NCBI GenBank assembly: GCA_037130925.1
Contig: JBAXSC010000001.1
Location: forward strand, 176,182-240,181
Direction: 5' to 3'
DNA from: Candidatus Nomurabacteria bacterium
GTDB taxonomy: Bacteria > Patescibacteriota > Minisyncoccia > Phycocordibacterales > UBA5272
DNA length: 64,000 nt
A model generated the notes under the pieces. That model made no database searches and was not told where the DNA came from. It saw only the letters and a list, made by a program, of their open reading frames with translations. Below, piece after piece: positions 232-58,689 of the stretch. Both the position numbers and the translations under genes were made by a program. Position 1 is the first letter of the stretch; each line of letters starts with the position of its first letter.

Positions 232-780
232 ATGATCAGTTCTTTAAAAGAATTAATGTTTGGTCTCGATCCATTGATCGCAGATCCTACATTAAAGAAA
301 TTCAAAGTTAAAATCGAAGATTTGAATAAAACTAATAGAATAGTTAAAGGAGGAATAAAAGGAATATTTTTTAATAGTTCATTTTTTAAAGGTCTTCCGG
401 CCATTAAAGATAAAAATAATAAAATCTATATTTTTTCTGTTAATTTTCATTCTTCTCAAATATCTTTTATAAGAGTGTTAGAAGAAATGAAAAATAGAAA
501 TTTAAGACCAATTAATATTTCTCTTTTTTTATATTTGAATTTAAAATCTTCAATATTAAGAAAAGAGTTTAAAAATATTGGCTATATGGATTCTAAGATT
601 AAAATGAATTTTTATTTAGCTTCTTTTAATGAAGAGAAAATTGATTTTTCTGTTTATAAAAGAGACGCTATTTTAGACAGGGAAATATATTTTCTTTGTG
701 AAAAAATTCCTTCCTTTTTTGAAAGATTGGTTAGTTTTATCAAAACCTCGGTTCCTAATATCCTTTTTTATTCAAGATAA
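232..780 (+). CDS. hypothetical protein
   Basis: 182-aa ORF, Phe/Lys/Ile-rich, no recognisable motif. Confidence 0.4.
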   Translation: MISSLKELMFGLDPLIADPTLKKFKVKIEDLNKTNRIVKGGIKGIFFNSSFFKGLPAIKDKNNKIYIFSVNFHSSQISFIRVLEEMKNRNLRPINISLFLYLNLKSSILRKEFKNIGYMDSKIKMNFYLASFNEEKIDFSVYKRDAILDREIYFLCEKIPSFFERLVSFIKTSVPNILFYSR

Positions 781-817
781 TTGAAATAAAGAAGGATATT
801 TTATTTTGTTAAAGTAT

Positions 818-845
818 TTGACAAATAATTTATAATATTATAGGA
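818..845 (+). promoter_or_regulatory. sigma70-type promoter (TTGACA 818-823; -10 weaker here) heading the repeated leader module (copy R1)
   Basis: TTGACAAAT box. Same architecture as the 22253 and 35466 copies. Confidence 0.45.
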
Positions 846-859
846 TATATTTAGTTAAA

Positions 860-888
860 TTTGCTCTTTAAAATCAAAAAAGAACAAA
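860..888 (+). promoter_or_regulatory. conserved leader inverted repeat TTTGCTCTTT-N-AAAGAACAAA (copy R1; one mismatch in the stem)
   Basis: Aligns with 22295-22328 and 35508-35542 (TTTTGTTCTT…AAGAACAAAA). Confidence 0.5.
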
Positions 889-938
889 TCTAAATTTCAA
901 AAACAATTATTTTTAAACAAAATTAAATTTTACAACAA

Positions 939-1631
939 ATGAAAAGTAAAAGAGTGGACTTGTGTGAATCACTTTTTGGTATTAAATTGCCAGAATTATT
1001 TCCTTACAAATCAAACAGAAAAATAGAAAGTGAGGAAAAAAATGAAAACGGAATTCTTGTTCCTGGTAAATGGGAATATAAAAATGAATCTGTTATTATT
1101 CATCCAGATTTGGAAAAATTTTTACCGGTAGAAACTATGACCCCAGAGCAAGCATTGCGACAGTTGAATATTTGCTCAAGTATTGCAATGGGTTGGGCAA
1201 ATGACAGCTACAAATATTTTGGACAAAAGCTTATGATGCATTTTTATTGCCAAGCAATATTAAATTGCATTTATTTTGCTTCAAAAAATTTTTCTGTTTG
1301 GGAAAAGGTAGTTTGTAATGATATGGATTTTTGGGGTTTTTTAGGAAAAGAGATTTTTGTATTTTGTGATGGATTTAAAGGGGAAAGACCAGATTTGTTT
1401 TATTATTCAAAAAAAATTACATTTTCTTTATTGAGATTAAAATTAGAAAATGGTGTATTACTTTATAAAGGACGAGAAAATAGTAAAAATGTTTGGGTTG
1501 GTAATGAGCTTTATAGTGCCATGACCATCGGACTTTTTTACAATGATAATCCTTTTAGTAAAGATGCTATTTTAAAAATTCTTAATGAGAAGTGTAATGA
1601 AGTAACAAAAAAACTGAATGCTACAAAGTAA
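939..1631 (+). CDS. hypothetical protein, member of a paralog family (related to the frameshifted gene at 35589-36127)
   Basis: 230-aa ORF. Shares the IKLP… and NEN..LVPGK(W)EY segments with the 35.6 kb gene and the same upstream module. Confidence 0.5.
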   Translation: MKSKRVDLCESLFGIKLPELFPYKSNRKIESEEKNENGILVPGKWEYKNESVIIHPDLEKFLPVETMTPEQALRQLNICSSIAMGWANDSYKYFGQKLMMHFYCQAILNCIYFASKNFSVWEKVVCNDMDFWGFLGKEIFVFCDGFKGERPDLFYYSKKITFSLLRLKLENGVLLYKGRENSKNVWVGNELYSAMTIGLFYNDNPFSKDAILKILNEKCNEVTKKLNATK

Positions 1632-1658
1632 TTTTTTGGTTTTAAAAGACATCAGAAA

Positions 1659-1686
1659 GGTCGGATATTTTCCGGCCTTTTATTTT
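1659..1686 (+). terminator. rho-independent terminator
   Basis: GGTCGGA-tattt-TCCGGCC stem (one G·U pair) followed by TTTTATTTT. Confidence 0.6.
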
Positions 1687-1793
1687 GCCCAAAAAGTCAT
1701 TTTATGATATTATATTTACAACACTAAGACGGTAGCTAAAGGATATTATTCAGAAAAGCATGTTTTAGTTTAGTGTTTTGTTATTTAAAAAAT

Positions 1794-2408
1794 ATGAAAG
1801 ATATTAACTCAAATCAAGAAGAAATAGAAGAATCAGAAAAAGATGATGTTGTCTTTGAAGAGCTAAATGCAGAAGGTGAAGAATTTAGTGAAAAAGATAA
1901 ACAAAAAAATGCTAAAAATAAATTAGCAGAAAAGTTTGCTGACAAAATAGAAAGATTAGAAAAAGAAAGAGATGAATATTTGAAAGGATGGCAAAGAATT
2001 CAAGCAGATTATAAAAATCGTGAGAAAGAAATAGAAGAATATAAAAAATCAGTTATTAAATTTGCGAATGCAGATTTTGTAAAAGATTTATTACCTGTGC
2101 TTGATGGATATGATCTGGCAAGAAGTAATAAAACTCAATGGGAAAATGTAGATAGTAATTGGAGAGTAGGTATAGAATATCTATTTTCTCAACTCTCAAA
2201 TGTTGTAGAAAGTAATGGTGTAGAAATTTTTGGTAAAGAAGGAGAAAATTATAATCCTGTCATACATGAAGCTATAGAAACTGTGAATTTATCAAGTGAA
2301 GAAAAAGACAAGAATGATAAAATAGTAAATGTAATACAAAAGGGATATAAAATTGGTGAGAAAATTTTACGACCTGCAAGAGTAAAAGTCGGAAAATTTG
2401 AAGAATAA
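1794..2408 (+). CDS. grpE: nucleotide exchange factor GrpE
   Basis: GrpE C-terminal signature …FANADFVKDLLPVLDGYDLA…, coiled-coil N-terminus. ATG at 1794 preferred over the GTG at 1773. Confidence 0.85.
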   Translation: MKDINSNQEEIEESEKDDVVFEELNAEGEEFSEKDKQKNAKNKLAEKFADKIERLEKERDEYLKGWQRIQADYKNREKEIEEYKKSVIKFANADFVKDLLPVLDGYDLARSNKTQWENVDSNWRVGIEYLFSQLSNVVESNGVEIFGKEGENYNPVIHEAIETVNLSSEEKDKNDKIVNVIQKGYKIGEKILRPARVKVGKFEE

Positions 2409-2439
2409 AATTATTAGAGTAAAAAATCAAAACAAATTA

Positions 2440-2485
2440 TTTTAAAATTTCTTAACCCTAAAGGGCTCCGACAAAATTTTAAAAA
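2440..2485. repeat. conserved 30-nt motif TTCTTAACCCTAAAGGGCTCCGACAAAA (copy 1), in the grpE-dnaK intergenic region
   Basis: Same core as 33937-33964. Flanked by TAAAATTT…AATTTTAA. Confidence 0.5.
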
Positions 2486-2528
2486 ATTATTTTGATTTTA
2501 TATAATATAAAAAATAAATTATAAAAAT

Positions 2529-4418
2529 ATGTCAAAAATTATTGGAATCGATTTAGGAACAACAAATTCAGCGGTGGCTATCATCGAAGGTGGTCAACCA
2601 AAAATTATAGAAAATGTAGAAGGATATCGTACAACTCCTTCTGTAGTTTCATTTTCAAAAAATGGAGAGAAGTCAGTAGGTATAACAGCAAAGAGACAAT
2701 CTGTAATTAATCCAGAAAATACAATTTATGGAGTAAAAAGATACATGGGTCACTCTTTTTCTGATAAAGAAGTACAAAATGATATTCCAAATGTTGCCTA
2801 CAAATTAAAAGAAGGAACTGGAGGATCAGTAACTGTGACTTTGGATGGAAAAGAATATCGTCCAGAGGAATTGTCTGCGATGATTCTTCAAAAAATAAAA
2901 TCAGATGTAGAAGCAAAGCTTGGTGAAAAAATTACAGAGGCTGTGATCACAGTACCTGCGTATTTTAATGATTCACAAAGACAAGCAACTATAGACGCTG
3001 GAAAAATTGCAGGACTCGATGTAAAAAGAATTATCCCAGAGCCAACAGCAGCTGCTCTCGCTTATGGATTTAATTCAAATAAAAATGAAAAGCTTGCAGT
3101 ATTCGACCTCGGAGGAGGAACATTTGATATTTCTATTCTTGAAGTAGGTGATGGAGTTGTGGAAGTTAAATCTGTAGATGGAGACTCTCATCTTGGAGGG
3201 CGCGATATTGATCAACAAATCATTAAATTTATTTCAGAGAAATTTAAAAATGAGACTGGTATCGATGTTTCAAAAGATCCTCTTGCAATACAAAGAATTG
3301 ACGAAGCTGCAGAAAAAGCAAAACATGAGCTTTCAACTCAATCAGAATCAGAAATCTTTTTACCATTCCTTGCAGCCGGACAAGATGGACCAAAGAATTT
3401 ACAAATGAAATTAACTCGTGCTGAGCTTGAAAATATTGCTCGTCCTTTTGTAGAAAGAGCAATTGAAATTACAAAGAGAGCACTTGCAAATTCTCCTTTC
3501 AAAAAAGAAGAAATCAATGATGTTATTTTAGTTGGAGGACAAACAAGAATGCCAATGGTTATCGAGGCTGTTAAAAATCTTTTTGGTAAAGATCCAAATA
3601 GATCAATTAATCCTGATGAAGTTGTGGCACTCGGTGCAGCAGTACAAGCTGGAGTTTTACAAGGTGATGTCAAAGATGTTCTTCTTCTTGATGTTATTCC
3701 ACTTTCACTTGGTATCGAAACAATGGGTGGTGTTGCGACAAAACTAGTTGAGAAAAATACAACTATTCCAACACAAAGATCACAAACTTTCTCAACTGCA
3801 GCTGACAATCAGACTTCAGTAGAAATTCACATTGTTCAAGGTGAAAGACCATTAGCGGCTGATAATAAATCTCTAGGAAGATTTATTCTTGATGGTATTC
3901 CTCCAGCACCTCGTGGTATGCCACAAGTCGAAGTATCATTTGATCTTGATGCGAATGGTATTCTTCAGGTGAAAGCAAAAGATAGAACTTCAGGAAAAGA
4001 GCAATCAATCAGAATCGAGGCTTCATCTGGTCTTTCAAAAGAAGATATTGAAAAAATGCAAAGAGAAGCAGAAGCAAATGCAGAAGCTGACAAACAAAAA
4101 ATGGAATTAATTGAAGCAAAGAATTTTGCTGATCAAGTAATTCATACAGCTGAAAAAGCTTTGAAAGATGCTGAAGGAAAAATTTCTGATGAAATTAAAA
4201 ATGATGTCACAGAAAAAAGAATTAATTTAACTTCAGTTAAAAATAATCCTGATTCATCTCTAGAGCAAATTAAAAAAGCTACAGAAGAATTGTCAGAATC
4301 AATGATGAAAATAGGTGAGGCTATGAAGACTGCAAATGATCAAGCAAATCCAAATCCAGAAAATCCAACTGGAGATGCAAATCAAGCTGATCAAAATTCT
4401 TCAGAACAAACTCAATAA
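2529..4418 (+). CDS. dnaK: molecular chaperone DnaK (Hsp70)
   Basis: [17 protein letters not shown]…, DLGGGTFD and [11 protein letters not shown] motifs. 629 aa. Confidence 0.97.
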
Positions 4419-13159: not shown

Positions 13160-13188
13160 TTGACTTTATTTAGATAATATATTATTAT
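13160..13188 (+). promoter_or_regulatory. sigma70 promoter TTGACT-N17-TATTAT (copy A of the duplicated upstream module)
   Basis: TTGACT 13160-13165, TATTAT 13183-13188. Identical architecture at 13927-13955. Confidence 0.55.
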
Positions 13189-13321
13189 CTAAATAGGGGT
13201 TCTTTGTAGATTTTTTGATTAAATTAATAGCTTTTTGGTGGATTATTTTTACTTTTCTGAATACAGGAAAATAGAAATAATTCACTAAATATTTTATTAA
13301 CTATTAAATTTAAATTAAAAA
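13189..13321 (+). promoter_or_regulatory. conserved 5' leader of about 130 nt (copy A), candidate cis-regulatory RNA
   Basis: Roughly 85% identical to 13956-14081, whereas the downstream CDSs are only weakly similar. Confidence 0.45.
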
Positions 13322-13861
13322 ATGAACAAACAGGAAAAAGTGTCAATTTCAAAAAAAGAGATTAGAAAAAAGAAATTCGATTTAGGTATCTCATTGGTAG
13401 GCTTTATTGCTATTTTTATAATTACTTACTTTCTTTTTGAGTGGTATTTTAAATTTAAATTTCAAGAATTTTGGAGTTTAAGTTTAAAAGAAACGGTTAT
13501 TAAAGATAAAAAGTTTTTAATACCTATTATATTTTCTTATATTTTAATTTGTATAAATTTGTATTCTGTATTGGATATAATTGATAAGATTAAAGATTTA
13601 AGAAAAAAGGAAAAATATAAAATAGTCGTAGAGAATTATTCTGTATTAGATCGTATCTTATTATCCTTTGCTTTAAATCTGGTAGTCACGTTTGCAATAT
13701 CATTAGCGGGCATTGTTGTCGGAACAGTAAATGGTCTTCGTAATGGTTTTGTTTTTGTGGGACCTCTAACTTTCTTTTTCAATTGGGGTTTATTTATAGG
13801 ATTATACGCAGGTTTGGTGTATGGTGTGTATAAGTTATTTGGTAAACCTAAACAAAAATAA
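13322..13861 (+). CDS. hypothetical multi-pass membrane protein (paralog A)
   Basis: 179 aa, 4 TM segments. Weak similarity to 14082-14561 (FKFQEFWSLSLKETVIKDKKF vs FKLQEFWDLKLRYTTIRDSWF). Confidence 0.5.
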   Translation: MNKQEKVSISKKEIRKKKFDLGISLVGFIAIFIITYFLFEWYFKFKFQEFWSLSLKETVIKDKKFLIPIIFSYILICINLYSVLDIIDKIKDLRKKEKYKIVVENYSVLDRILLSFALNLVVTFAISLAGIVVGTVNGLRNGFVFVGPLTFFFNWGLFIGLYAGLVYGVYKLFGKPKQK

Positions 13862-13884
13862 TTGAAAATATTTTTTAAAATTAA

Positions 13885-13918
13885 AAAACCGGTCTTTATG
13901 ACCGGTTTCTTGTTTTAT
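13885..13918 (+). terminator. rho-independent terminator
   Basis: AACCGGTC-tttat-GACCGGTT perfect stem followed by a T-run. Confidence 0.7.
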
Positions 13919-13926
13919 TACTTTTA

Positions 13927-13955
13927 TTGACTTAATATTTTGAATATATTATTAT
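13927..13955 (+). promoter_or_regulatory. sigma70 promoter TTGACT-N17-TATTAT (copy B)
   Basis: Duplicate of the 13160 promoter. Confidence 0.55.
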
Positions 13956-14081
13956 CTAGCTTGAATGGTTCTTTGTAAGTCTTTTGATTAAATCAATAGT
14001 TTTTTGGTGGATTATTTTTGTTTTGCTAAATATAGAAAAATAGAAATAATTCACTAATTATTAACTATTAATTTAAACAAA
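13956..14081 (+). promoter_or_regulatory. conserved 5' leader of about 125 nt (copy B)
   Basis: See copy A at 13189-13321. Confidence 0.45.
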
Positions 14082-14561
14082 ATGGAAAAGGAACAAAAAA
14101 ATGAAACTAGTTTATTTACGGAAATGCTGATATTAATTGATCTAATTTTATTAAATTGTGTGGCAATTAGTTATTATTTTATTTTTAAATTACAAGAGTT
14201 TTGGGATTTAAAATTAAGATATACAACGATTCGAGACAGTTGGTTTTTTTTAAATTTTATTATTTTTTATTTTTTAATTAATATTACTTTTTATTTTATA
14301 ATAAAGGTATATGGATTAATAAAATTTAAATTAAACAAAGAAGAATATGAAGATTTTATTGATTCAGCAAAGCTAACACTTTTTATGGTAAGTGCTTTGA
14401 GTTTTATTATGGGTATGATTATAGGTATTATTTTAGGAATAATGCTTAGCTTTTTTTACAGTTTCTCTATAATATTTTTTATATTATGGGGAATGGTAAT
14501 AGGCTTGATAATCGGATCTGTGGCAGGTCTGATATTGTCTTTTAAAGAGAATAATATTTGA
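14082..14561 (+). CDS. hypothetical multi-pass membrane protein (paralog B)
   Basis: 159 aa, 4 TM segments. Confidence 0.5.
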   Translation: MEKEQKNETSLFTEMLILIDLILLNCVAISYYFIFKLQEFWDLKLRYTTIRDSWFFLNFIIFYFLINITFYFIIKVYGLIKFKLNKEEYEDFIDSAKLTLFMVSALSFIMGMIIGIILGIMLSFFYSFSIIFFILWGMVIGLIIGSVAGLILSFKENNI

Positions 14562-14573
14562 TTTTATTTTTAA

Positions 14574-14606
14574 AAACCGGTCTTCGTGACCGGTTTTGTT
14601 TTTTTA
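14574..14606. terminator. bidirectional rho-independent terminator
   Basis: AAACCGGTC-ttcgt-GACCGGTTT with T-runs. Same hairpin family as 13885. Confidence 0.7.
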
Positions 14607-14610
14607 TATT

Positions 14611-15267
14611 TTAATTATATTCTAAATATTCTCCCTCTGAAATAATCTCTACTTCTCCATCAATTATTTTTAATGCTGAATTATCATCGAGTGCGTATAC
14701 TTTCTTTTGAATAGTATCTGCTATATTTTTAATATTTTCTTCTCTTGCTAGAGAAAAGTAAGAATTATTTAAATGTGGTAGAAAATAAAAATCAGTATAA
14801 TTTAATGCTGGAATGTCGCTATCTTTTTCAAGATCTTCATTATATATAAGTTTAGATATTTCAATATTTAAATTTGGATTTGTTATCATGCTTCCAGCAG
14901 AAACTCCAACATAAACTTTTATTTTTAATAATTCAGGAAGAAGATCGGCGAGTCCAGATTTATTTACCCATTCCATTAAATAATAAGTATTTCCTCCTTC
15001 AAAAAATATCACATCAGCTTCTTCGATTTGTGGTCTCCAAATGTTTTCTGGTACAGCAGAAATGTCAGTAATACTAATAGATTTGAGATTTAATTTATAT
15101 AAATTATTTAAATCATTTATAAGCCAGCTTTTATCTCCTGTTTCAATATTTGACGCTGTAGGGATAAATACAAGGGAAGTATCTTCTGGATTTTTTCCAG
15201 CTAATTCAAATAATGCTTTTGCTATTGATTGATTTGTTATTCCACTGGAAGTTAGTAGTAATTTCAT
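14611..15267 (-). CDS. peptidase E-like (family S51, dipeptidase E/cyanophycinase-like)
   Basis: …ADVIFFEGGNTYYLM…KVYVGVSAGSMIT… aligns with the E. coli PepE core including the GxSAG serine. Confidence 0.7.
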   Translation of the reverse strand: MKLLLTSSGITNQSIAKALFELAGKNPEDTSLVFIPTASNIETGDKSWLINDLNNLYKLNLKSISITDISAVPENIWRPQIEEADVIFFEGGNTYYLMEWVNKSGLADLLPELLKIKVYVGVSAGSMITNPNLNIEISKLIYNEDLEKDSDIPALNYTDFYFLPHLNNSYFSLAREENIKNIADTIQKKVYALDDNSALKIIDGEVEIISEGEYLEYN

Positions 15268-22252: not shown

Positions 22253-22280
22253 TTGACAAATAATATTAAAAGAGTATAGT
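22253..22280 (+). promoter_or_regulatory. sigma70 promoter TTGACA-N16-TATAGT (leader module copy R2)
   Basis: TTGACAAAT 22253-22261, TATAGT 22275-22280. Confidence 0.6.
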
Positions 22281-22294
22281 GATTTATAGATAAA

Positions 22295-22328
22295 TTTTGT
22301 TCTTTTAAATTAAAATTAAGAACAAATT
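22295..22328 (+). promoter_or_regulatory. conserved leader inverted repeat TTTTGTTCTTTT…AAGAACAAA (copy R2)
   Basis: Aligns with the copies at 860 and 35508. Confidence 0.5.
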
Positions 22329-22370
22329 TAAATTTCTAAAAATATTTTTTAATTATTCAAATTTTAAACA

Positions 22371-22910
22371 ATGAATAGCAATTTATCAATTTACAAAGAT
22401 GGTGAAAAAATCACAGGTAATGAACATGTAATTAAAACAGAAGTTATTGCAGGAGCTACCTGCTATTTTATCTCAGAACTTTGTTTTAAAGTTTCTACTG
22501 AAGATCTTGTATTGTTACAAGATAATACTGAAGCAATTAATGTTTTTAGTAAACTTGGAGATAGAGAAGAAAATGTGTTAAATGAATGGCCAAAAGCAAA
22601 AATACTTCCAAATTGGATTTATTTTGTAAAAAAAGGAAAACACATTTCTAGTAACGAAGTAGAAAAACTTTATGAAGAAATCATGCTGAGAGTAGAATTA
22701 AATGTTATTGCAGCATTTAATTCAAAATATCCAGAATTTCATAAAAGTGTCCGAAATGGGATTCAAATAAAAAATTCTAAAGGTGACTTCTGTTCTGCTG
22801 TTTTTGGTTGCTGGCCAGAAGATTCAAGTGTTCATATTGAGCTGTTACATTTACATGATAGTGAATATGAGTGGGGATTTTATTGGTGGTTTCCTGGGTT
22901 TATTAAGTAG
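22371..22910 (+). CDS. hypothetical protein (Trp/Phe-rich C-terminus)
   Basis: 179-aa ORF driven by the R-module. Confidence 0.45.
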   Translation: MNSNLSIYKDGEKITGNEHVIKTEVIAGATCYFISELCFKVSTEDLVLLQDNTEAINVFSKLGDREENVLNEWPKAKILPNWIYFVKKGKHISSNEVEKLYEEIMLRVELNVIAAFNSKYPEFHKSVRNGIQIKNSKGDFCSAVFGCWPEDSSVHIELLHLHDSEYEWGFYWWFPGFIK

Positions 22911-22974
22911 TTTTTTCTTTTCAAACTTTGTTTTTTATTAGACCTTTAACTTTAAAAAAAGTTGAAGGTCTTTT

Positions 22975-23649
22975 TTGTTATATAATATATTCACTATTGT
23001 ATTAATATTTAATATGCATATACGCTCAAAAAAGAATTTAAAGCCAGGACTGAATGATAGATCTATTAGTCGATTAATTTTTTCTATTGTGATTGTTTTT
23101 ATAATGCTCGGATTAGTTTTTTCTTTAGGAAATATTGGAAAGAGTCGTAAATTGGATTTTAATTTTTTATCCAGATTCCAAGATAAATTTAAAAAACAAG
23201 AAGTTGCTACGACTACTAGTATGGCTTGGATTTTAAATCCTTCTAAAATTTTAAAAACAAATGATGGGCAGGAAATATATATACAAATTGCATCTACATC
23301 ACAAGAAGAAGCAGATGGACTTTCTTGGAAAGACCAATTAAAAGTTTATAATCAAAATGGAAAAATAAATACTGAAGGAATGCTTTTTGATTTTAAATTT
23401 CCAAAGATAGAAAATTTTTGGATGAAAGATATGAATTTTGATCTTGATATGATTTGGCTTGATAGTAATTATAAAATAGTTCATATAGAGAAAAATGCTT
23501 TAGCAAGTTCATATAATAAAGAAGATCCAAATTCTTCGCAGATTTTTTCTAATGATAATGATCATTTAGCTCAATATGTTTTAGAAATAAATGCTGGATT
23601 AGTAGATAAAATGAATTTAAAAGAAGGGGATACTTTAATCACTAATTAA
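22975..23649 (+). CDS. DUF192-domain protein with N-terminal membrane anchor
   Basis: …FWMKDMNFDLDMIWLDSNYKIVHI…YVLEINAGLVDKMNLKEGDTL… matches the DUF192 (COG1430) consensus. Confidence 0.65.
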   Translation: MLYNIFTIVLIFNMHIRSKKNLKPGLNDRSISRLIFSIVIVFIMLGLVFSLGNIGKSRKLDFNFLSRFQDKFKKQEVATTTSMAWILNPSKILKTNDGQEIYIQIASTSQEEADGLSWKDQLKVYNQNGKINTEGMLFDFKFPKIENFWMKDMNFDLDMIWLDSNYKIVHIEKNALASSYNKEDPNSSQIFSNDNDHLAQYVLEINAGLVDKMNLKEGDTLITN

Positions 23650-33924: not shown

Positions 33925-33975
33925 TTCGAATTTTCTTAACCCTAAAGGGCTCCGACAAAAATTCTTAAGAGTATT
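33925..33975. repeat. conserved 30-nt motif TTCTTAACCCTAAAGGGCTCCGACAAAA embedded in an inverted repeat (copy 2). Likely bidirectional terminator or structured element.
   Basis: Near-identical core to 2446-2477. Flanked by AAAAAATACTCTT…AAGAGTATTTTTTG. Confidence 0.5.
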
Positions 33976-34871: not shown

Positions 34872-35409
34872 GTTTTTCTATTTCTATTTCTTGAATATTT
34901 TCTGCATGATCTATAAAGAGTATTCCGTCTAAATGATCACATTCATGCTGAAATATTTGTGCTATTAAATTTGACGCACCAAAGCTAAATTTATTTCCCA
35001 TAAAGTCATAAGCCTCTATTGTGACACTTGCATGTCTCTCTGTTGTACCATAGAGTGGTCTTACTGATAGGCATCCTTCATCTGCGAGCATTGTTTTTTT
35101 ACTTGCTTTTGTGATTGTTGGATTGATGAATACTAGAGGCTTCCAGACAGGATTTTTATTTCCTATTTCATAAGCTGACTCTCTCACTAAGAAAATTTTT
35201 TTAGATATTCCTATTTGTGGTGCTGCTATAGCTACTCCATCGCTTTCTTGATTCATTGCTTCTTTCATATCATCAAGTATCTTTTTTAATTCTGGAGTTC
35301 CAAATTCATTTTTATTTACATTTTTTGCTTCATGTCTCAATACACTTGTCTCATCAAGCTTTTGTTCTTCATCTTCCTTTTTCCAGTCAATTTGTACTAT
35401 TTTGACCAT
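34861..35409 (-). CDS. def: peptide deformylase
   Basis: Motifs GVAIAAPQIG, EGCLSV, QHECDHLDG. Overlaps fmt by 11 nt (def-fmt operon). Confidence 0.9.
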   Translation of the reverse strand: MVKIVQIDWKKEDEEQKLDETSVLRHEAKNVNKNEFGTPELKKILDDMKEAMNQESDGVAIAAPQIGISKKIFLVRESAYEIGNKNPVWKPLVFINPTITKASKKTMLADEGCLSVRPLYGTTERHASVTIEAYDFMGNKFSFGASNLIAQIFQHECDHLDGILFIDHAENIQEIEIEKHGK

Positions 35410-35465: not shown

Positions 35466-35493
35466 TTGACAAATTAGTAAATAAGAGTATAAT
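35466..35493 (+). promoter_or_regulatory. sigma70 promoter TTGACA-N16-TATAAT (leader module copy R3)
   Basis: TTGACAAAT 35466-35474, TATAAT 35488-35493. Confidence 0.65.
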
Positions 35494-35507
35494 AATATAT
35501 AGTTAAA

Positions 35508-35542
35508 TTTTGTTCTTTAAAATCAAAAAATTAAGAACAAAA
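35508..35542 (+). promoter_or_regulatory. conserved leader inverted repeat TTTTGTTCTT-N15-AAGAACAAAA (copy R3)
   Basis: Perfect 10-bp arms. Confidence 0.5.
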
Positions 35543-35588
35543 TTAAATTTCTAAAACAATATTTTAATATTTTTAAATTTTATTCAAA

Positions 35589-36127
35589 ATGAACACAAAT
35601 TCAAAACGTTGGATCAAAAACGGTCGTATTTATTTTTCAGTAATAGGCCTGGGTCTTACAGCTGAAAAGTGGAAAACAAGGCTTAAAAAAATGGTCATAA
35701 AATTACCAATTCCGCAGATAAACTTCTTACAAAATCAGATTATAATGAAAATCATAGACTAGTACCTGGAAAAGAGTATCATTTAGTGTTGGTTGAAAAT
35801 AATAAAATGGGAAAAGATTTTAAATTTACAGATGAGAACTTAAAAACTTTCTCTATAAAAGAGTTTGGTGAAAGTTCTGTATCGGAATTGAAAGGTGAAT
35901 TAGCCTTACTTATTCGTGAAAAATTTTCTAATGAAGAATTGGAAGAGATGGGTTTAGCTTATATAGCTGTACTTCATAAACCAATTATTTCTTTTTCCGT
36001 TGATAATTCTGCAGGTACTCTTCGTTCTGGTCAAAATATTGGGTATTCTTTAATAGATTCTTATTATGATATCAGGTATGATGACTGGGTTATTGACCGT
36101 GGTTCTTTTGCTTTTTTGGTAAATTAA
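35589..36127 (+). pseudogene. frameshifted paralog of the 939-1631 gene (or a programmed frameshift). ORF-a 35589-35762 continues in the +2 frame as 35687-36127.
   Basis: Frame-0 product …MVIKLPIPQ… and frame-2 product …YNENHRLVPGKEYH… both align to the single R1 protein (…GIKLPELFPY…KNENGILVPGKWEY…). Confidence 0.45.
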
Positions 36128-36153
36128 TTTTTTGATTTTCTTTTTTTTAAAAT

Positions 36154-36182
36154 CCTCTTCGTGAAAGCGGGGAGGTTTTTTA
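36154..36182. terminator. bidirectional terminator
   Basis: CCTCTTCG-tgaaag-CGGGGAGG (with G·U pairs) followed by TTTTTTA. Confidence 0.6.
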
Positions 36183-42736: not shown

Positions 42737-42786
42737 TATTAAAAACCTATCAATAAAATGATAGGTTTTTAATTATTTATTACATA

Positions 42787-42815
42787 TTGACAAATAAATT
42801 AACTATAATATACTT
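42787..42815 (+). promoter_or_regulatory. TTGACAAAT promoter-leader module (copy P4a)
   Basis: Aligns with 43146-43217, including the ATGT start context. Confidence 0.4.
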
Positions 42816-42854
42816 ATTAAGTTAAAATTCTTTTTTAATTTTAAAAACGTTCGT

Positions 42855-43085: not shown

Positions 43086-43145
43086 AGTTTATTAAAATGT
43101 GTACAATTTAATTATTGTATGCATTTTTTGTTTATTTTTATCTAT

Positions 43146-43173
43146 ATTGACAAATAATTTAATTATATTATAT
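43146..43173 (+). promoter_or_regulatory. sigma70 promoter TTGACA-N16-TATATT (copy P4b)
   Basis: Paralogous to 42787. Confidence 0.45.
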
Positions 43174-43217
43174 TTAAATAGTTAAATTATTTTTTAAAAA
43201 ATTAAATCGTTCTTTTT

Positions 43218-58307: not shown

Positions 58308-58336
58308 TTGACAAATTATTTATTATGATATATACT
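58308..58336 (+). promoter_or_regulatory. sigma70 promoter TTGACA-N17-TATACT (with an overlapping TTGACT)
   Basis: TTGACTTGACAAAT. Confidence 0.55.
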
Positions 58337-58380: not shown

Positions 58381-58689
58381 ATGGAAAATTTATCCAAATT
58401 AATGGAAGCAATCCTAGGTATTAGTGGCAGTAATTTTATTTTTGTTCTGTACGCAAACAACAAACCTATTACCGAGGATAAAATAAAAGAAGTAAAGCAT
58501 TTAAAAGAAGAACATGTGCTTGTATTTCAATTAGAAAATGCCGGTGAAATTAGAAAACATTTAGCTTTCAATTTCATTGAAGTTAAATCAGATACCGAAA
58601 TACATATCATATGTAAAGGTAGGACATCTAATTTTGTTGTTCTTTCAAAAGAAGAACAAGAGAATAAGAATGAAAACCATTCTTCTTAA
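58381..58689 (+). CDS. hypothetical protein
   Basis: 102-aa ORF. Confidence 0.4.
   Translation: MENLSKLMEAILGISGSNFIFVLYANNKPITEDKIKEVKHLKEEHVLVFQLENAGEIRKHLAFNFIEVKSDTEIHIICKGRTSNFVVLSKEEQENKNENHSS

What the first reader, a model, noticed from the sequence alone, without database searches (positions are those of the whole stretch)
818..940. Promoter plus structured-leader module of about 120 bp reused in three copies in front of divergent genes (copy R1)
Copies at 818-940, 22253-22372 and 35466-35590 share a TTGACAAAT -35 and a TATA(A/G)T -10. All three then have the start-region motif AGTTAAATTT and a conserved inverted repeat TTTTGTTCTT-N13/15-AAGAACAAAA. The conserved tail TAAATTTC(T/A)AAAA…AAATTTTA..CAATGAA runs through the start codon. 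The downstream proteins differ: 230 aa, 179 aa, and a frameshifted roughly 175-aa paralog. Conservation is therefore concentrated in the noncoding module. The inverted repeat sits where a repressor operator overlapping the transcription start would be, or it could form a leader-RNA hairpin. Either way it defines a small co-regulated regulon or a mobile promoter cassette.
Basis: seen in the sequence. Interest (0 to 1): 0.7.

Follow-up and report, generated by a model that had tools for sequence, protein, structure and literature searches.

The report
Shared promoter-leader of hypervariable-protein genes
Three unrelated small genes in an ultra-small (CPR, Nomurabacteria) bacterium share one ~120-bp promoter and leader; two encode lectin-fold proteins of families that retroelements (DGRs) hypermutate in related genomes, and the first bases of the leader recur before such genes across related bacteria, which suggests a common control signal.

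Summary
Three ~120-150 bp segments align at 74-84% identity (E 1e-20 to 1e-34), and the similarity stops within 10 nt of each ATG. The three proteins show no sequence similarity to one another, so the third is not a "paralog".

The TTGACAAAT/-10/AGTTAAA part is this genome's general promoter consensus. The module-specific part is the hairpin plus the TAAATTTCNAAAA tail.

The organism is a Candidatus Nomurabacteria MAG. Two of the three genes belong to families of C-type-lectin-fold variable proteins of diversity-generating retroelements (DGRs). In other genomes their relatives carry VR/TR pairs with adenine-specific mismatches, in two loci next to Avd and a reverse transcriptase.

A core, G(Y)TCTTT(W)AAA about 8-11 nt after the predicted start, sits at a fixed offset from the -35 box in 7 of 10 such leaders from nine other Parcubacteria genomes (22-47% GC). 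It also heads two membrane-protein leaders in this window. The right hairpin arm and the tail are confined to this species (plus one fragment in a distant MAG).

Leaders cluster by genome, not by gene family. A related genome holds a different cassette at the syntenic def|priA site.

The best reading is a shared cis-regulatory promoter/5'-UTR module, kept similar within the genome. Whether it works as an RNA stem-loop or as an operator is unresolved. Interest is moderate.

The parts
818..846 (+). R1 promoter: -35 TTGACA 818-823, 17-nt spacer, -10 TAGGAT 841-846 (alternatively TATAGG with a 15-nt spacer)
   Evidence: sequence; TTGACAAAT search; comparison with the other promoters of the window
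853..938 (+). R1 leader: predicted start region AGTTAAA 853-859; core GCTCTTTAAAA 863-873; left arm ATTTGCTCTT 859-868; loop 869-879 (11 nt); right arm AAGAACAAAT 880-889; tail TAAATTTCAAAAA 891-903; A/U-rich spacer up to the ATG at 939
   Evidence: The transcription start is inferred from the -10 position and was not mapped
939..1631 (+). P1, 230-aa ORFan. Its only relative is the ortholog in sister strain L014 (81% aa). It forms a divergence island: dN 0.113, dS 0.563, against 0.004/0.063 for the neighbouring grpE
1629..1687 (+). P1 3' junction TAATTTTTTGGTTTTAAA (complementary to the leader loop), then terminator-like hairpin AAGGTCGG-N7-CCGGCCTT followed by a T run
22253..22280 (+). R2 promoter: -35 TTGACA 22253-22258, 16-nt spacer, -10 TATAGT 22275-22280
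22288..22370 (+). R2 leader: AGATAAA 22288-22294; left arm TTTTGTTCTT 22295-22304 (core GTTCTTTTAAA 22299-22309); loop 22305-22317 (13 nt); right arm AAGAACAAAT 22318-22327; tail TAAATTTCTAAAA; ATG at 22371
22371..22910 (+). P2, 179 aa (NCBI tag WCO35_01135). It belongs to a C-type-lectin-fold family whose member P0045 carries a VR/TR pair with adenine-specific mismatches. The last ~135 nt (22776-22907) are adenine-depleted, as a VR would be
22908..22977 (+). P2 3' region: TAGTTTTTTCTTTTC junction, then hairpin AGACCTTTAACTTT-AAAAAA-AGTTGAAGGTCT (22940-22971) and a T run. The hairpin is homologous to the 3' hairpins of family members in L034 and L036
35466..35493 (+). R3 promoter: -35 TTGACA 35466-35471, 16-nt spacer, -10 TATAAT 35488-35493. 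Homology with the syntenic locus of a related genome (L032) ends at 35472, just past the -35 box
35501..35588 (+). R3 leader: AGTTAAA 35501-35507; left arm TTTTGTTCTT 35508-35517 (core GTTCTTTAAAA 35512-35522); loop 35518-35532 (15 nt); right arm AAGAACAAAA 35533-35542; tail TAAATTTCTAAAA 35545-35557; ATG at 35589
35589..36127 (+). P3, a frameshifted gene (A7 run at 35685-35691; A8 would restore 179 aa) of a C-type-lectin-fold DGR variable-protein family. The last ~150 nt are adenine-depleted. NCBI annotates only a fragment (WCO35_01230)
36124..36181 (+). P3 3' junction TTAATTTTTTGATTTT (exact reverse complement of leader loop 35519-35534), then hairpin CCTCTTCG-TGAAAG-CGGGGAGG (36154-36175) and a T run
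13160..13321 (+). A further promoter-plus-core unit: TTGACT-17-TATTAT, then GGGGTTCTTTG (core at offset 39), then a ~22-bp hairpin. It is the leader of membrane-protein gene 13322-13861
13927..14081 (+). Second copy of that leader (88% identical over 96 nt; core at offset 41), in front of the paralogous gene 14082-14561

Best explanation
The ~120-bp module is the sigma-70-type promoter plus the roughly 85-nt 5' untranslated leader of three separate single-gene transcription units. Each unit has its own terminator. They sit between housekeeping genes of a Candidatus Nomurabacteria (CPR) genome.

At least two of the three genes (P2 and P3) encode C-type-lectin-fold proteins. Their families are diversified by diversity-generating retroelements in related genomes. 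The third gene (P1) is a fast-diverging ORFan.

The module has three layers:
1. A generic strong promoter (TTGACAAAT, 16-17 nt, TAnnnT) and a start region AGTTAAA. Many genes of this genome share these.
2. An old, lineage-wide core, G(Y)TCTTT(W)AAA, about 8-11 nt into the transcript. It is kept at a fixed offset from the promoter in front of DGR-type variable-protein genes of three protein families across Parcubacteria. In this window it also heads two membrane-protein genes.
3. A species-specific extension: the right arm AAGAACAAA, the tail TAAATTTCNAAAA and an A/U-rich spacer. This extension turns the core into the 5' arm of a stem-loop at the very 5' end of the mRNA.

Inferred mechanism: the core is a cis-regulatory signal that puts these accessory genes under common control. 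In this genome it works as a 5'-terminal stem-loop of the mRNA that affects stability or translation.

The three copies are more alike within the genome (78-82%) than leaders of the same gene family are across genomes (65-72%). They have therefore been spread or homogenised inside this genome by duplication or gene conversion, while the coding bodies were exchanged.

Shown: the anatomy, the gene families, the conservation and position of the core, and the cassette difference at a syntenic site. Inferred: the transcription start, any regulatory effect, and the RNA level of action.
For: - Alignments and where they end. There are no further copies in the window.
- The promoter part is generic.
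- Each gene is monocistronic with its own terminator.
- Organism: Candidatus Nomurabacteria.
- P3 family: 41 relatives. VR/TR pairs with mismatches at TR adenines, next to bAvd and an RVT_1 reverse transcriptase, in L024/L026 and L028/L029.
- P2 family: 25 relatives. VR/TR pair in L030/L031.
- Members of the two families share homologous N-terminal segments (E 2e-11 and 5e-14).
- The 3' ends of P2 and P3 are adenine-depleted.
- Core G[CT]TCTTT lies 36-46 nt from the start of the -35 box in 7 of 10 leaders from nine other genomes with 22-47% GC. About 0.004 is expected per leader.
- Within the window the core follows 5 of 41 TTGAC[AT] sites at that offset, against 0.17 expected. Elsewhere in the window it is not enriched.
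- Leader identity clusters by genome, not by gene family.
- The sister strain keeps R1, including its mismatch.
- At the syntenic fmt-def|priA site, L032 holds a P2-type gene plus a P3-like gene where the window holds P3. Homology breaks right after the -35 box.
- A stem-loop starting 1-3 nt from the predicted 5' end is predicted for all three copies, with 89% of cells paired.
[quoted passage not shown] A role in expression rather than in mutagenesis is therefore the economical reading.
Against: - No transcription start or expression data exist. The start site is inferred only from the -10 position.
- The hairpin is thermodynamically weak and not better than shuffles (z -0.4 to -1.8).
- It has no covariation support.
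- It is not conserved outside this species. The conserved function of the core may therefore lie at the DNA level or in binding a protein.
- The window contains no reverse transcriptase, no Avd and no template repeat for P2 or P3. Whether these genes are active DGR targets here is unknown.
- P3 is frameshifted.
- P1 has no detectable link to DGR families.
- The leaders in other genomes may share the core by common descent, so the enrichment statistics overstate independence.
- The core also heads two membrane-protein genes. The link to DGR targets is therefore not exclusive.
Confidence: 0.5

Rival explanations
1. The module carries a DNA operator. A repressor (or activator) binds the inverted repeat TTTGTTCTT...AAGAACAAA, or the core alone, just downstream of the start site. 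This would switch the variable-protein genes on and off together.
For: - The repeat lies at about +8 to +45, a usual place for repressor operators.
- The core keeps a fixed offset from the promoter across genomes and gene families, as a DNA site would.
- No consistent RNA pairing partner for the core is conserved between genomes.
Against: - Arm spacing varies (11, 13 and 15 nt) and R1 has a mismatched arm. A rigid dimer would not tolerate this.
- The right arm is missing from all homologous leaders in other genomes.
- The alternative dyad, GTTAAA...TTTAA(A/C), has a variable spacer of 6-9 nt, judged by reading the leaders collected.
- No regulator gene is linked to any copy.
Confidence: 0.2
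2. The similarity is historical only. A strong promoter with its leader was duplicated or gene-converted in front of accessory genes, that is, it is a 'putative mobile promoter'. It serves merely as a promoter, and the hairpin and tail have no function of their own.
For: - R2-R3 meet the published criterion: 84% over 127 nt, with flanking CDS not alignable (PMC3488235).
- There are only three copies in 64 kb.
- The hairpin is weak and lineage-specific.
- Between strains the leader is less conserved (88.6%) than the neighbouring intergenic DNA (97-100%).
- A second pair of similar promoter-leaders precedes unrelated small ORFs at 42784 and 43144.
Against: - The core is kept at a fixed position in genomes from 22 to 47% GC and in three protein families, while the rest of the leaders has diverged to background similarity.
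- The tail TAAATTTCNAAAA is exact in all three copies.
- The loop is complementary to the 3' junction in two cassettes.
Confidence: 0.15
3. The conserved 5' module and the short conserved 3' junction are handles for cassette exchange. They would be recombination substrates that let different variable-protein bodies be swapped into a fixed expression slot, or inverted repeats that allow the ORF to flip.
For: - Only these three of 72 genes have TA(A/G)TTTTTT[GC]NTTT directly after the stop codon.
- In the P1 and P3 cassettes this junction is the reverse complement of the leader loop: 16/16 and 17/18 nt; duplex -11.8 and -12.3 kcal/mol; ranks 1-2 of 72 gene tails.
- Between strains the P1 unit is a divergence island bounded by the promoter/leader and the stop codon, with dS nine times that of the neighbour.
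- A different cassette occupies the syntenic def|priA site in L032, with the homology break at the -35 box.
- A 42-nt fragment of the leader, starting in the loop, abuts the 3' end of pgk in a distant 40%-GC MAG (L005).
Against: - No recombinase or transposase lies next to any copy.
- The complementary stretches are short and of low complexity (A/T runs), and P2 lacks the complementarity.
- There are no target-site duplications or terminal repeats of the MITE/IS kind, and no integron attC core (judged by reading the sequences).
- The L005 fragment lies at a contig end and may be an assembly chimera.
Confidence: 0.1

Closest known systems
Putative mobile promoters / promoter propagation (Matus-Garcia et al. 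2012, PMC3488235)
   Same: Highly similar upstream regions of 50-150 nt lie in front of non-homologous genes within one genome. Similarity starts a few bases from the start codon and extends to about -120. Copy number is small (two or three), which suggests duplication by recombination rather than transposition.
   Different: - Only the R2-R3 pair reaches the 80% threshold. The pairs with R1 are at 74-76% over their whole length.
- The genes are not random: two belong to DGR variable-protein families.
- A short core is conserved far beyond this genome.
Target (variable-protein) genes of diversity-generating retroelements, C-type-lectin class (Mtd of phage BPP-1, TvpA of Treponema; CPR DGRs surveyed in PMC5758913 and PMC8144416)
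   Same: - P2 and P3 belong to families whose members have a 3' VR matched by a TR with adenine-specific differences. In two loci these lie next to Avd and a reverse transcriptase.
- The fold is C-type-lectin/FGE-like.
- A hairpin follows the stop codon.
   Different: - The feature under study is the 5' promoter/leader. [quoted passage not shown]
- No TR, RT or Avd is present in this 64-kb window.
- P3 is frameshifted.
- The DGR survey checked here (PMC5758913) does not mention target-gene promoters or leaders.
5'-terminal stabiliser stem-loops of bacterial mRNAs (ompA in E. coli, aprE and ermC in B. subtilis), and 5'/3'-UTR pairing (B. subtilis hbs); cited from my own knowledge
   Same: A stem-loop is predicted within 1-3 nt of the inferred 5' end. 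In two cassettes the loop is complementary to the sequence just after the stop codon.
   Different: - The stem is A/U-rich and weak.
- It is not conserved between genomes.
- No 5' end or decay data exist.
Repressor operators overlapping the transcription start
   Same: An inverted repeat lies just downstream of +1, and a motif is kept at a fixed distance from the promoter.
   Different: The spacing between the arms is variable, the second arm is missing in other genomes, and no regulator is known.

Membership tests
Putative mobile promoter (PMC3488235) | Upstream regions align over at least 50 nt at 80% identity or more | tested here: met
   R2-R3 reach 84% over 127 nt. R1-R2 (74% over 173 nt) and R1-R3 (76% over 154 nt) fall below 80% over the full alignment. 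The +1 to +55 block has 88% mean column identity.
Putative mobile promoter (PMC3488235) | Downstream and upstream coding sequences do not align | tested here: met
   P1, P2 and P3 are mutually unrelated by BLASTP/tblastn. The DNA alignments end within 10 nt after the ATG and begin in intergenic DNA. The upstream genes differ: an ORF of 182 aa, bipA, and the divergent def.
DGR variable-protein (target) gene | Variable repeat at the 3' end of the gene, matched by a template repeat that differs at adenines | tested here: inconclusive
   Met for family members elsewhere: L024/L026 and L028/L029 (P3 family) and L030/L031 (P2 family), at 83-85% identity with the mismatches at TR adenines. For the window's own P2 and P3 no TR is found in the 64 kb; the rest of the 321-kb contig could not be read. 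The 3' ends are adenine-depleted.
DGR variable-protein (target) gene | Reverse transcriptase and accessory protein (Avd) in the genome | tested here: not met
   tblastn with RT and Avd sequences from L024 and L028 finds nothing in the window (best E 0.33). The remainder of the genome is not testable with these tools.
DGR variable-protein (target) gene | C-type-lectin (or Ig) fold carrying the VR | tested here: met
DGR variable-protein (target) gene | Inverted repeat (hairpin/cruciform) shortly downstream of VR | tested here: met
   Hairpins at 22940-22971 and 36154-36175. The P2 hairpin is homologous to those of L034 and L036. They also look like intrinsic terminators, so their role is not decided.
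Dimeric repressor operator | Dyad symmetry with fixed half-site spacing, conserved in orthologous promoters | tested here: not met
   Spacers are 11, 13 and 15 nt, and R1 has a C.A mismatch. The right arm is absent from leaders in nine other genomes.
Conserved structured leader RNA (riboswitch or other Rfam family) | Match to a curated covariance model, or covariation supporting a structure | tested here: not met
   Rfam shows only tRNAs in the window and nothing credible in related loci. There is one compensatory pair, which 232 of 500 shuffles match. Folding z-scores are -0.4 to -1.8.
5'-terminal stabiliser stem-loop | Stem-loop within a few nucleotides of the mapped 5' end, with an effect on half-life | not testable with these tools
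   The predicted stem starts 1-3 nt from the inferred start, but no 5'-end or decay data exist.
MITE / IS / integron attC | Terminal inverted repeats with target-site duplication, or the attC R''/R' cores (RYYYAAC...GTTRRRY) | tested here: not met
   Reading the sequences shows no TIR/TSD around the module. GTTCTTT does not fit GTTRRRY. Only three copies are present. The pattern is absent from viral contigs apart from a chance hit.

The most novel reading that the evidence does not exclude
In Parcubacteria, DGR-type variable-protein genes might be organised as exchangeable expression cassettes. A conserved promoter/leader on the 5' side, and a short junction plus hairpin on the 3' side, would frame interchangeable lectin-fold bodies. 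In two of the three cassettes here, the leader loop and the post-stop junction are mutually complementary. This would give a second tier of diversification, scaffold swapping between loci and genomes, on top of adenine mutagenesis. The conserved leader core would then be the handle of a dedicated regulator or RNA-level switch that decides which variable proteins are made.
Probability: 0.15. Interest if true: 0.75.

Novelty: new member of a known kind. Interest (0 to 1): 0.5.

Why it matters
CPR bacteria are uncultured episymbionts, and DGR-diversified lectin-fold proteins are thought to mediate their contact with hosts. Almost nothing is known about how these genes are expressed.

A short leader signature at a fixed distance from the promoter is shared by several variable-protein families across genomes of very different base composition. 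This has three uses:
- It gives a sequence handle for finding 'remote' DGR targets and associated genes that lie far from the reverse transcriptase. Metagenome surveys miss these (PMC8144416).
- It points to coordinated control of these genes.
- It defines a concrete site to test for a regulator or an RNA-level mechanism.

Leaders cluster by genome while coding bodies differ, and a different cassette sits at a syntenic site in a related genome. This suggests frequent replacement of variable-protein genes behind a stable expression signal.

Tried and rejected
- Paralogy of the three proteins: rejected (BLASTP/tblastn; hhalign P2 family vs P3 family not significant; P1 vs both families not significant).
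- Known RNA family: none found (Rfam).
- More copies in the window: none (nhmmer; pattern search).
- Wider distribution by exact pattern AAGAACAAANNTAAATTTCNAAAA: among 185,579 species genomes only one real hit (L005). In the JGI metagenomes only the sister strain (L014). In viral contigs only chance hits.
- Upstream ORF ending in the ATGA overlap: the frame is open for 21-27 codons in R1-R3, but has no ATG/GTG/TTG start and is broken in the sister strain. Rejected.
- The core as an anti-Shine-Dalgarno element that sequesters the ribosome-binding site: this pairing appears in the minimum-energy folds of L022, L036, L028 and L032g2. It is no better than other 12-mers of the same leaders, and it is absent in the window, where no Shine-Dalgarno sequence exists. 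Not supported as a general rule.
- Integron attC, MITE or IS: rejected by reading the sequences.
- LexA-type GAAC/GTTC box: the orientation and spacing do not fit (from my own knowledge).
- Phage origin: no PHROG, PADLOC, Pfam or NCBIfam matches. The P3 family was not found in IMG/VR; the search for the P2 family could not be run.
- RT, Avd or TR in the window: none.
- Frameshift as an assembler artefact: an independent Logan assembly of the same run shows the same A7 run. An error at the level of the reads cannot be excluded.
- The afdb50 fold library was unavailable.
Full report
**1. The observation**

- Pairwise blastn gives R1-R2 74% over 173 nt, R1-R3 76% over 154 nt and R2-R3 84% over 127 nt, with E-values of 2e-20 to 5e-34. 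Every alignment stops within 10 nt after the start codon.
- A profile of the leader finds only these three copies in the 64 kb.
- TTGACAAAT and TAAATTTC[AT]AAAA are exact in all three.

Some details need correction.
- R1 has TATAGG or TAGGAT rather than TATA(A/G)T.
- R2 has AGATAAATTT rather than AGTTAAATTT.
- The inverted repeat is perfect only in R3. R2 ends in a U.U mismatch and R1 carries a C.A mismatch.
- The loops are 11, 13 and 15 nt.
- The three proteins show no similarity to each other, so the third is not a paralog.
- The third gene is disrupted at an A7 run (35685-35691). With A8 it gives a 179-aa protein that aligns end to end with 41 relatives. An independent Logan assembly of the same sequencing run has the same A7 run.

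**2. What is generic and what is specific**

TTGACAAAT occurs eight times in the window, always on the + strand. The other five sites show the same layout: -35 box, 16-17 nt spacer, TAnnnT, then RTTAAA about 7 nt further on. The promoter half of the module is therefore this genome's consensus for strong promoters.

The module-specific part is TTTG(T/C)TCTT, a loop, AAGAACAAA, then TAAATTTCNAAAA and an A/U-rich spacer. None of the genes in the window has a recognisable Shine-Dalgarno sequence.

**3. The genes**

The source is a Candidatus Nomurabacteria MAG. Its 321-kb contig carries tags WCO35_01000, WCO35_01135 and WCO35_01230.

Each of the three genes is a single-gene unit with its own promoter and terminator-like hairpin, set between housekeeping genes:
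- P1 lies upstream of grpE-dnaK.
- P2 lies between bipA and a DUF192 gene.
- P3 lies between def (divergent) and a priA-like helicase.

None has a Pfam, PHROG, NCBIfam or PADLOC match.

P3 family:
- P3 has 41 relatives at 40-60% identity.
- In L024/L026 and L028/L029 the relative is followed by a template repeat, a minus-strand bAvd gene and an RVT_1 reverse transcriptase.
- The last 121-130 nt of the gene match the template at about 84%, with the differences at template adenines. This is the signature of a diversity-generating retroelement (DGR).

P2 family:
- P2 has 25 relatives in the exhaustive HMMER search.
- One of them (P0045, 55% identical) carries the same kind of VR/TR pair in L030/L031.

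Fold and further links:
- AlphaFold models of P3 and P2 are confident (pLDDT 87.7 and 88.1).
- Members of the two families share homologous N-terminal segments although their lectin bodies are unrelated.
- The 3' ends of P2 and P3 are adenine-poor (0.16-0.27) compared with 0.38 in housekeeping genes.
- The window itself has no reverse transcriptase, no Avd and no template repeat. Whether P2 and P3 are active targets here cannot be decided.

P1 has only one relative, the ortholog in the sister strain, and no detectable link to either family.

**4. Conservation of the module**

The metagenome contig L014 is 95% identical to window 315-3729. It keeps R1, including the mismatched arm.
- In that comparison the flanking genes are 97.5-98.7% identical and the intergenic regions 97-100%.
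- The leader is 88.6% identical and the P1 coding sequence 83.9%.
- P1 has dS 0.56 and dN/dS 0.20, against dS 0.06 for grpE. P1 is thus a functional gene sitting in a divergence island, bounded on the left by the promoter/leader and on the right by the stop codon.

I collected ten leaders of P2-type and P3-type genes from nine other genomes with 22-47% GC.
- The right arm and the tail are absent from all of them.
- Seven of the ten have G[CT]TCTTT 36-46 nt after the start of the -35 box. About 0.004 is expected per leader. The other three have one-mismatch variants.
- Several also keep AG(T/A)TAAA at the predicted start, for example AGTTAAAAAGCTCTTTTAAAC in a 42-47% GC genome (L036).
- Most of these leaders then carry a long 20-25 bp hairpin (-29 to -55 kcal/mol) of varying sequence.

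Within the window, the core follows 5 of 41 TTGAC[AT] sites at this offset, against 0.17 expected. The five are the three modules and the two 88%-identical leaders of tandem membrane-protein genes at 13160 and 13927, which also have a ~22-bp hairpin. Elsewhere in the window the core is not enriched. The core is therefore an old, position-specific leader element, linked mostly but not only to DGR-type genes.

**5. How the three copies relate**

Leader identity is 78-82% among the three unrelated genes of this genome. It is 65-72% between a gene here and its family members elsewhere, and about 55-60% is background.

L032/L033, from a 22%-GC relative, is syntenic with the R3 site (fmt, def | cassette | priA).
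- DNA homology runs up to position 35472, just past the -35 hexamer, and resumes in priA.
- Between those points L032 holds a P2-type gene (72% identical in DNA to the window's P2, which sits elsewhere) plus a distant P3-like gene.

The expression signal thus stays in place while the coding body differs. Inside one genome the leaders are kept alike, by duplication or gene conversion.

**6. A second shared element**

Of 72 genes in the window, only these three have TA(A/G)TTTTTT[GC]NTTT right after the stop codon.
- In the P1 and P3 units this junction is the reverse complement of the leader loop (16/16 and 17/18 nt).
- The cognate duplexes are -11.8 and -12.3 kcal/mol and rank 1-2 among all 72 gene tails.
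- P2 shows no such complementarity.

This could mean 5'/3' pairing in the mRNA, inverted repeats flanking the ORF, or chance in A/T runs. I leave it open.

**7. Mechanism**

RNA folding puts a stem-loop 1-3 nt from the inferred 5' end in all three copies. It is weak (-4.8, -7.2 and -10.3 kcal/mol) and not better than shuffles. Of 14 pairs, ten never vary and one shows a compensatory change, which gives no statistical support.

A rigid dimer operator fits poorly, because arm spacing varies and the second arm is not conserved elsewhere. A reading of the core as an anti-Shine-Dalgarno element, and a uORF reading, were both tested and not supported.

[quoted passage not shown] A role in expression is therefore the economical reading.

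My best account is a common cis-regulatory promoter/5'-UTR module for a set of accessory genes, mainly DGR-type variable-protein genes. In this species the conserved core forms the 5' arm of a terminal stem-loop. The level of action (RNA stability or translation versus a DNA or RNA-binding factor) is inferred, not shown.

**8. Comparison with what is known**

- The closest described concept is promoter propagation, or 'putative mobile promoters' (PMC3488235). R2-R3 meet its criteria.
- The genes fall in the known class of C-type-lectin DGR variable proteins, which are abundant in CPR (PMC5758913, PMC8144416).
- The DGR survey I checked does not mention target-gene promoters or leaders, and Rfam has no matching family.

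I rate the finding as a new member of a known kind (a shared promoter/leader element), with moderate interest. Its value lies in the link to DGR-type genes and in the cross-genome core.

**9. Open points**

- A 42-nt stretch 98% identical to R3 (35515-35556), running from the loop through the tail, forms the last bases of a contig of a 40%-GC MAG (L005). There it directly continues the 3' end of pgk. It may be a real copy lacking a promoter, or an assembly chimera.
- The arms TTGTTCTT-N7-AAGAACAA also occur inside the small ORF 58381-58689.

Noticed in passing
window 13160-14620: Two tandem genes for paralogous membrane proteins (13322-13861 and 14082-14561; 38% aa identity over 65 residues) have 88%-identical 96-nt leaders with a ~22-bp hairpin (GTGGATTATTTTTAC...GAAATAATTCAC). 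They also have near-identical terminators (AAAAACCGGTCTTyrTGACCGGTTT). Their leaders start with the same GGTTCTTTG core as the modules. There is no Rfam or Pfam match.
   Followed up: partly
window 42784-42852 and 43144-43212: A second pair of similar promoter-leaders (77% over 69 nt; TTGACAAATAA..TATAAT..AGTTAAA) lies in front of two unrelated small ORFs (76 and 119 aa, no Pfam match).
   Followed up: partly
window ~2450-2478 and ~33935-33963: An identical 29-nt core, TTTCTTAACCCTAAAGGGCTCCGACAAAA, with similar flanks (72% over 105 nt) occurs upstream of dnaK and between two convergent genes. It contains a small CCC-TAAA-GGG hairpin. Function unknown.
   Followed up: no
window 35685-35691: The P3 gene is disrupted by an A7 homopolymer; A8 would restore the frame. 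The same A7 run is present in an independent assembly of the same run (L038). It could be decay, or slipped-strand phase variation of a variable-protein gene.
   Followed up: partly
window 939-1631 vs L014: Between two strains that are 95% identical overall, P1 and its leader form a divergence island: CDS 84% and leader 89%, against 97-100% around them. dS is nine times that of grpE and dN/dS is 0.20. This suggests allelic replacement by recombination rather than relaxed selection.
   Followed up: yes
L005 1-44 (MAG AM_bin-0091, contig end): A 42-nt stretch 98% identical to the R3 leader (loop, right arm and tail) directly follows, and supplies the last codons of, a pgk gene in a 40%-GC genome, and the contig ends there. 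It is either a promoter-less copy or an assembly chimera.
   Followed up: partly
L024 ~1270-1500, L028 ~2130-2340, L030 ~3330-3520: A conserved block of about 130 nt lies between the target gene and the template repeat in three CPR DGR loci (for example ACCGAAATCAGTATCCATATATYGAGAGT ... AGAGTGGTATATGTAGACACTTC). It is probably part of the DGR RNA. There is no Rfam match.
   Followed up: no
L020, L022, L024, L027, L028, L030, L034, L036 (3' UTRs of the variable-protein genes): The 3' UTRs share a motif TTAG(A/T)(T/C)CCTTTG ahead of the terminal hairpin. A similar TTAGTTCCTTCTCGG occurs in the 5' leaders of L020, L024 and L027.
   Followed up: no
L022/L023 3001-3744: A P3-family variable-protein gene, with its own promoter and a 215-nt structured leader, is inserted between atpB and atpE inside the ATP synthase operon of a 40%-GC Parcubacteria genome.
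   Followed up: no
L030 2501-3800: A P2-family target gene with its template repeat lies between tatD and rpsF-ssb-rpsR, with no reverse transcriptase within 2.5 kb. The leader of rpsF contains AGTTATTTTAAAAAT, which resembles the variant core of the target gene's own leader.
   Followed up: no
window 58637-58659: The hairpin arms of the module recur as TTGTTCTT-TCAAAAG-AAGAACAA inside the coding sequence of a 102-aa ORFan (58381-58689). That ORFan is itself driven by a TTGACAAAT promoter at 58308.
   Followed up: no
window 35047-35071: Four clustered substitutions in def distinguish the MAG from the Logan assembly of the same run (L038). The rest of the 3.3 kb is identical, which points to strain micro-heterogeneity or a small recombination patch.
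   Followed up: no
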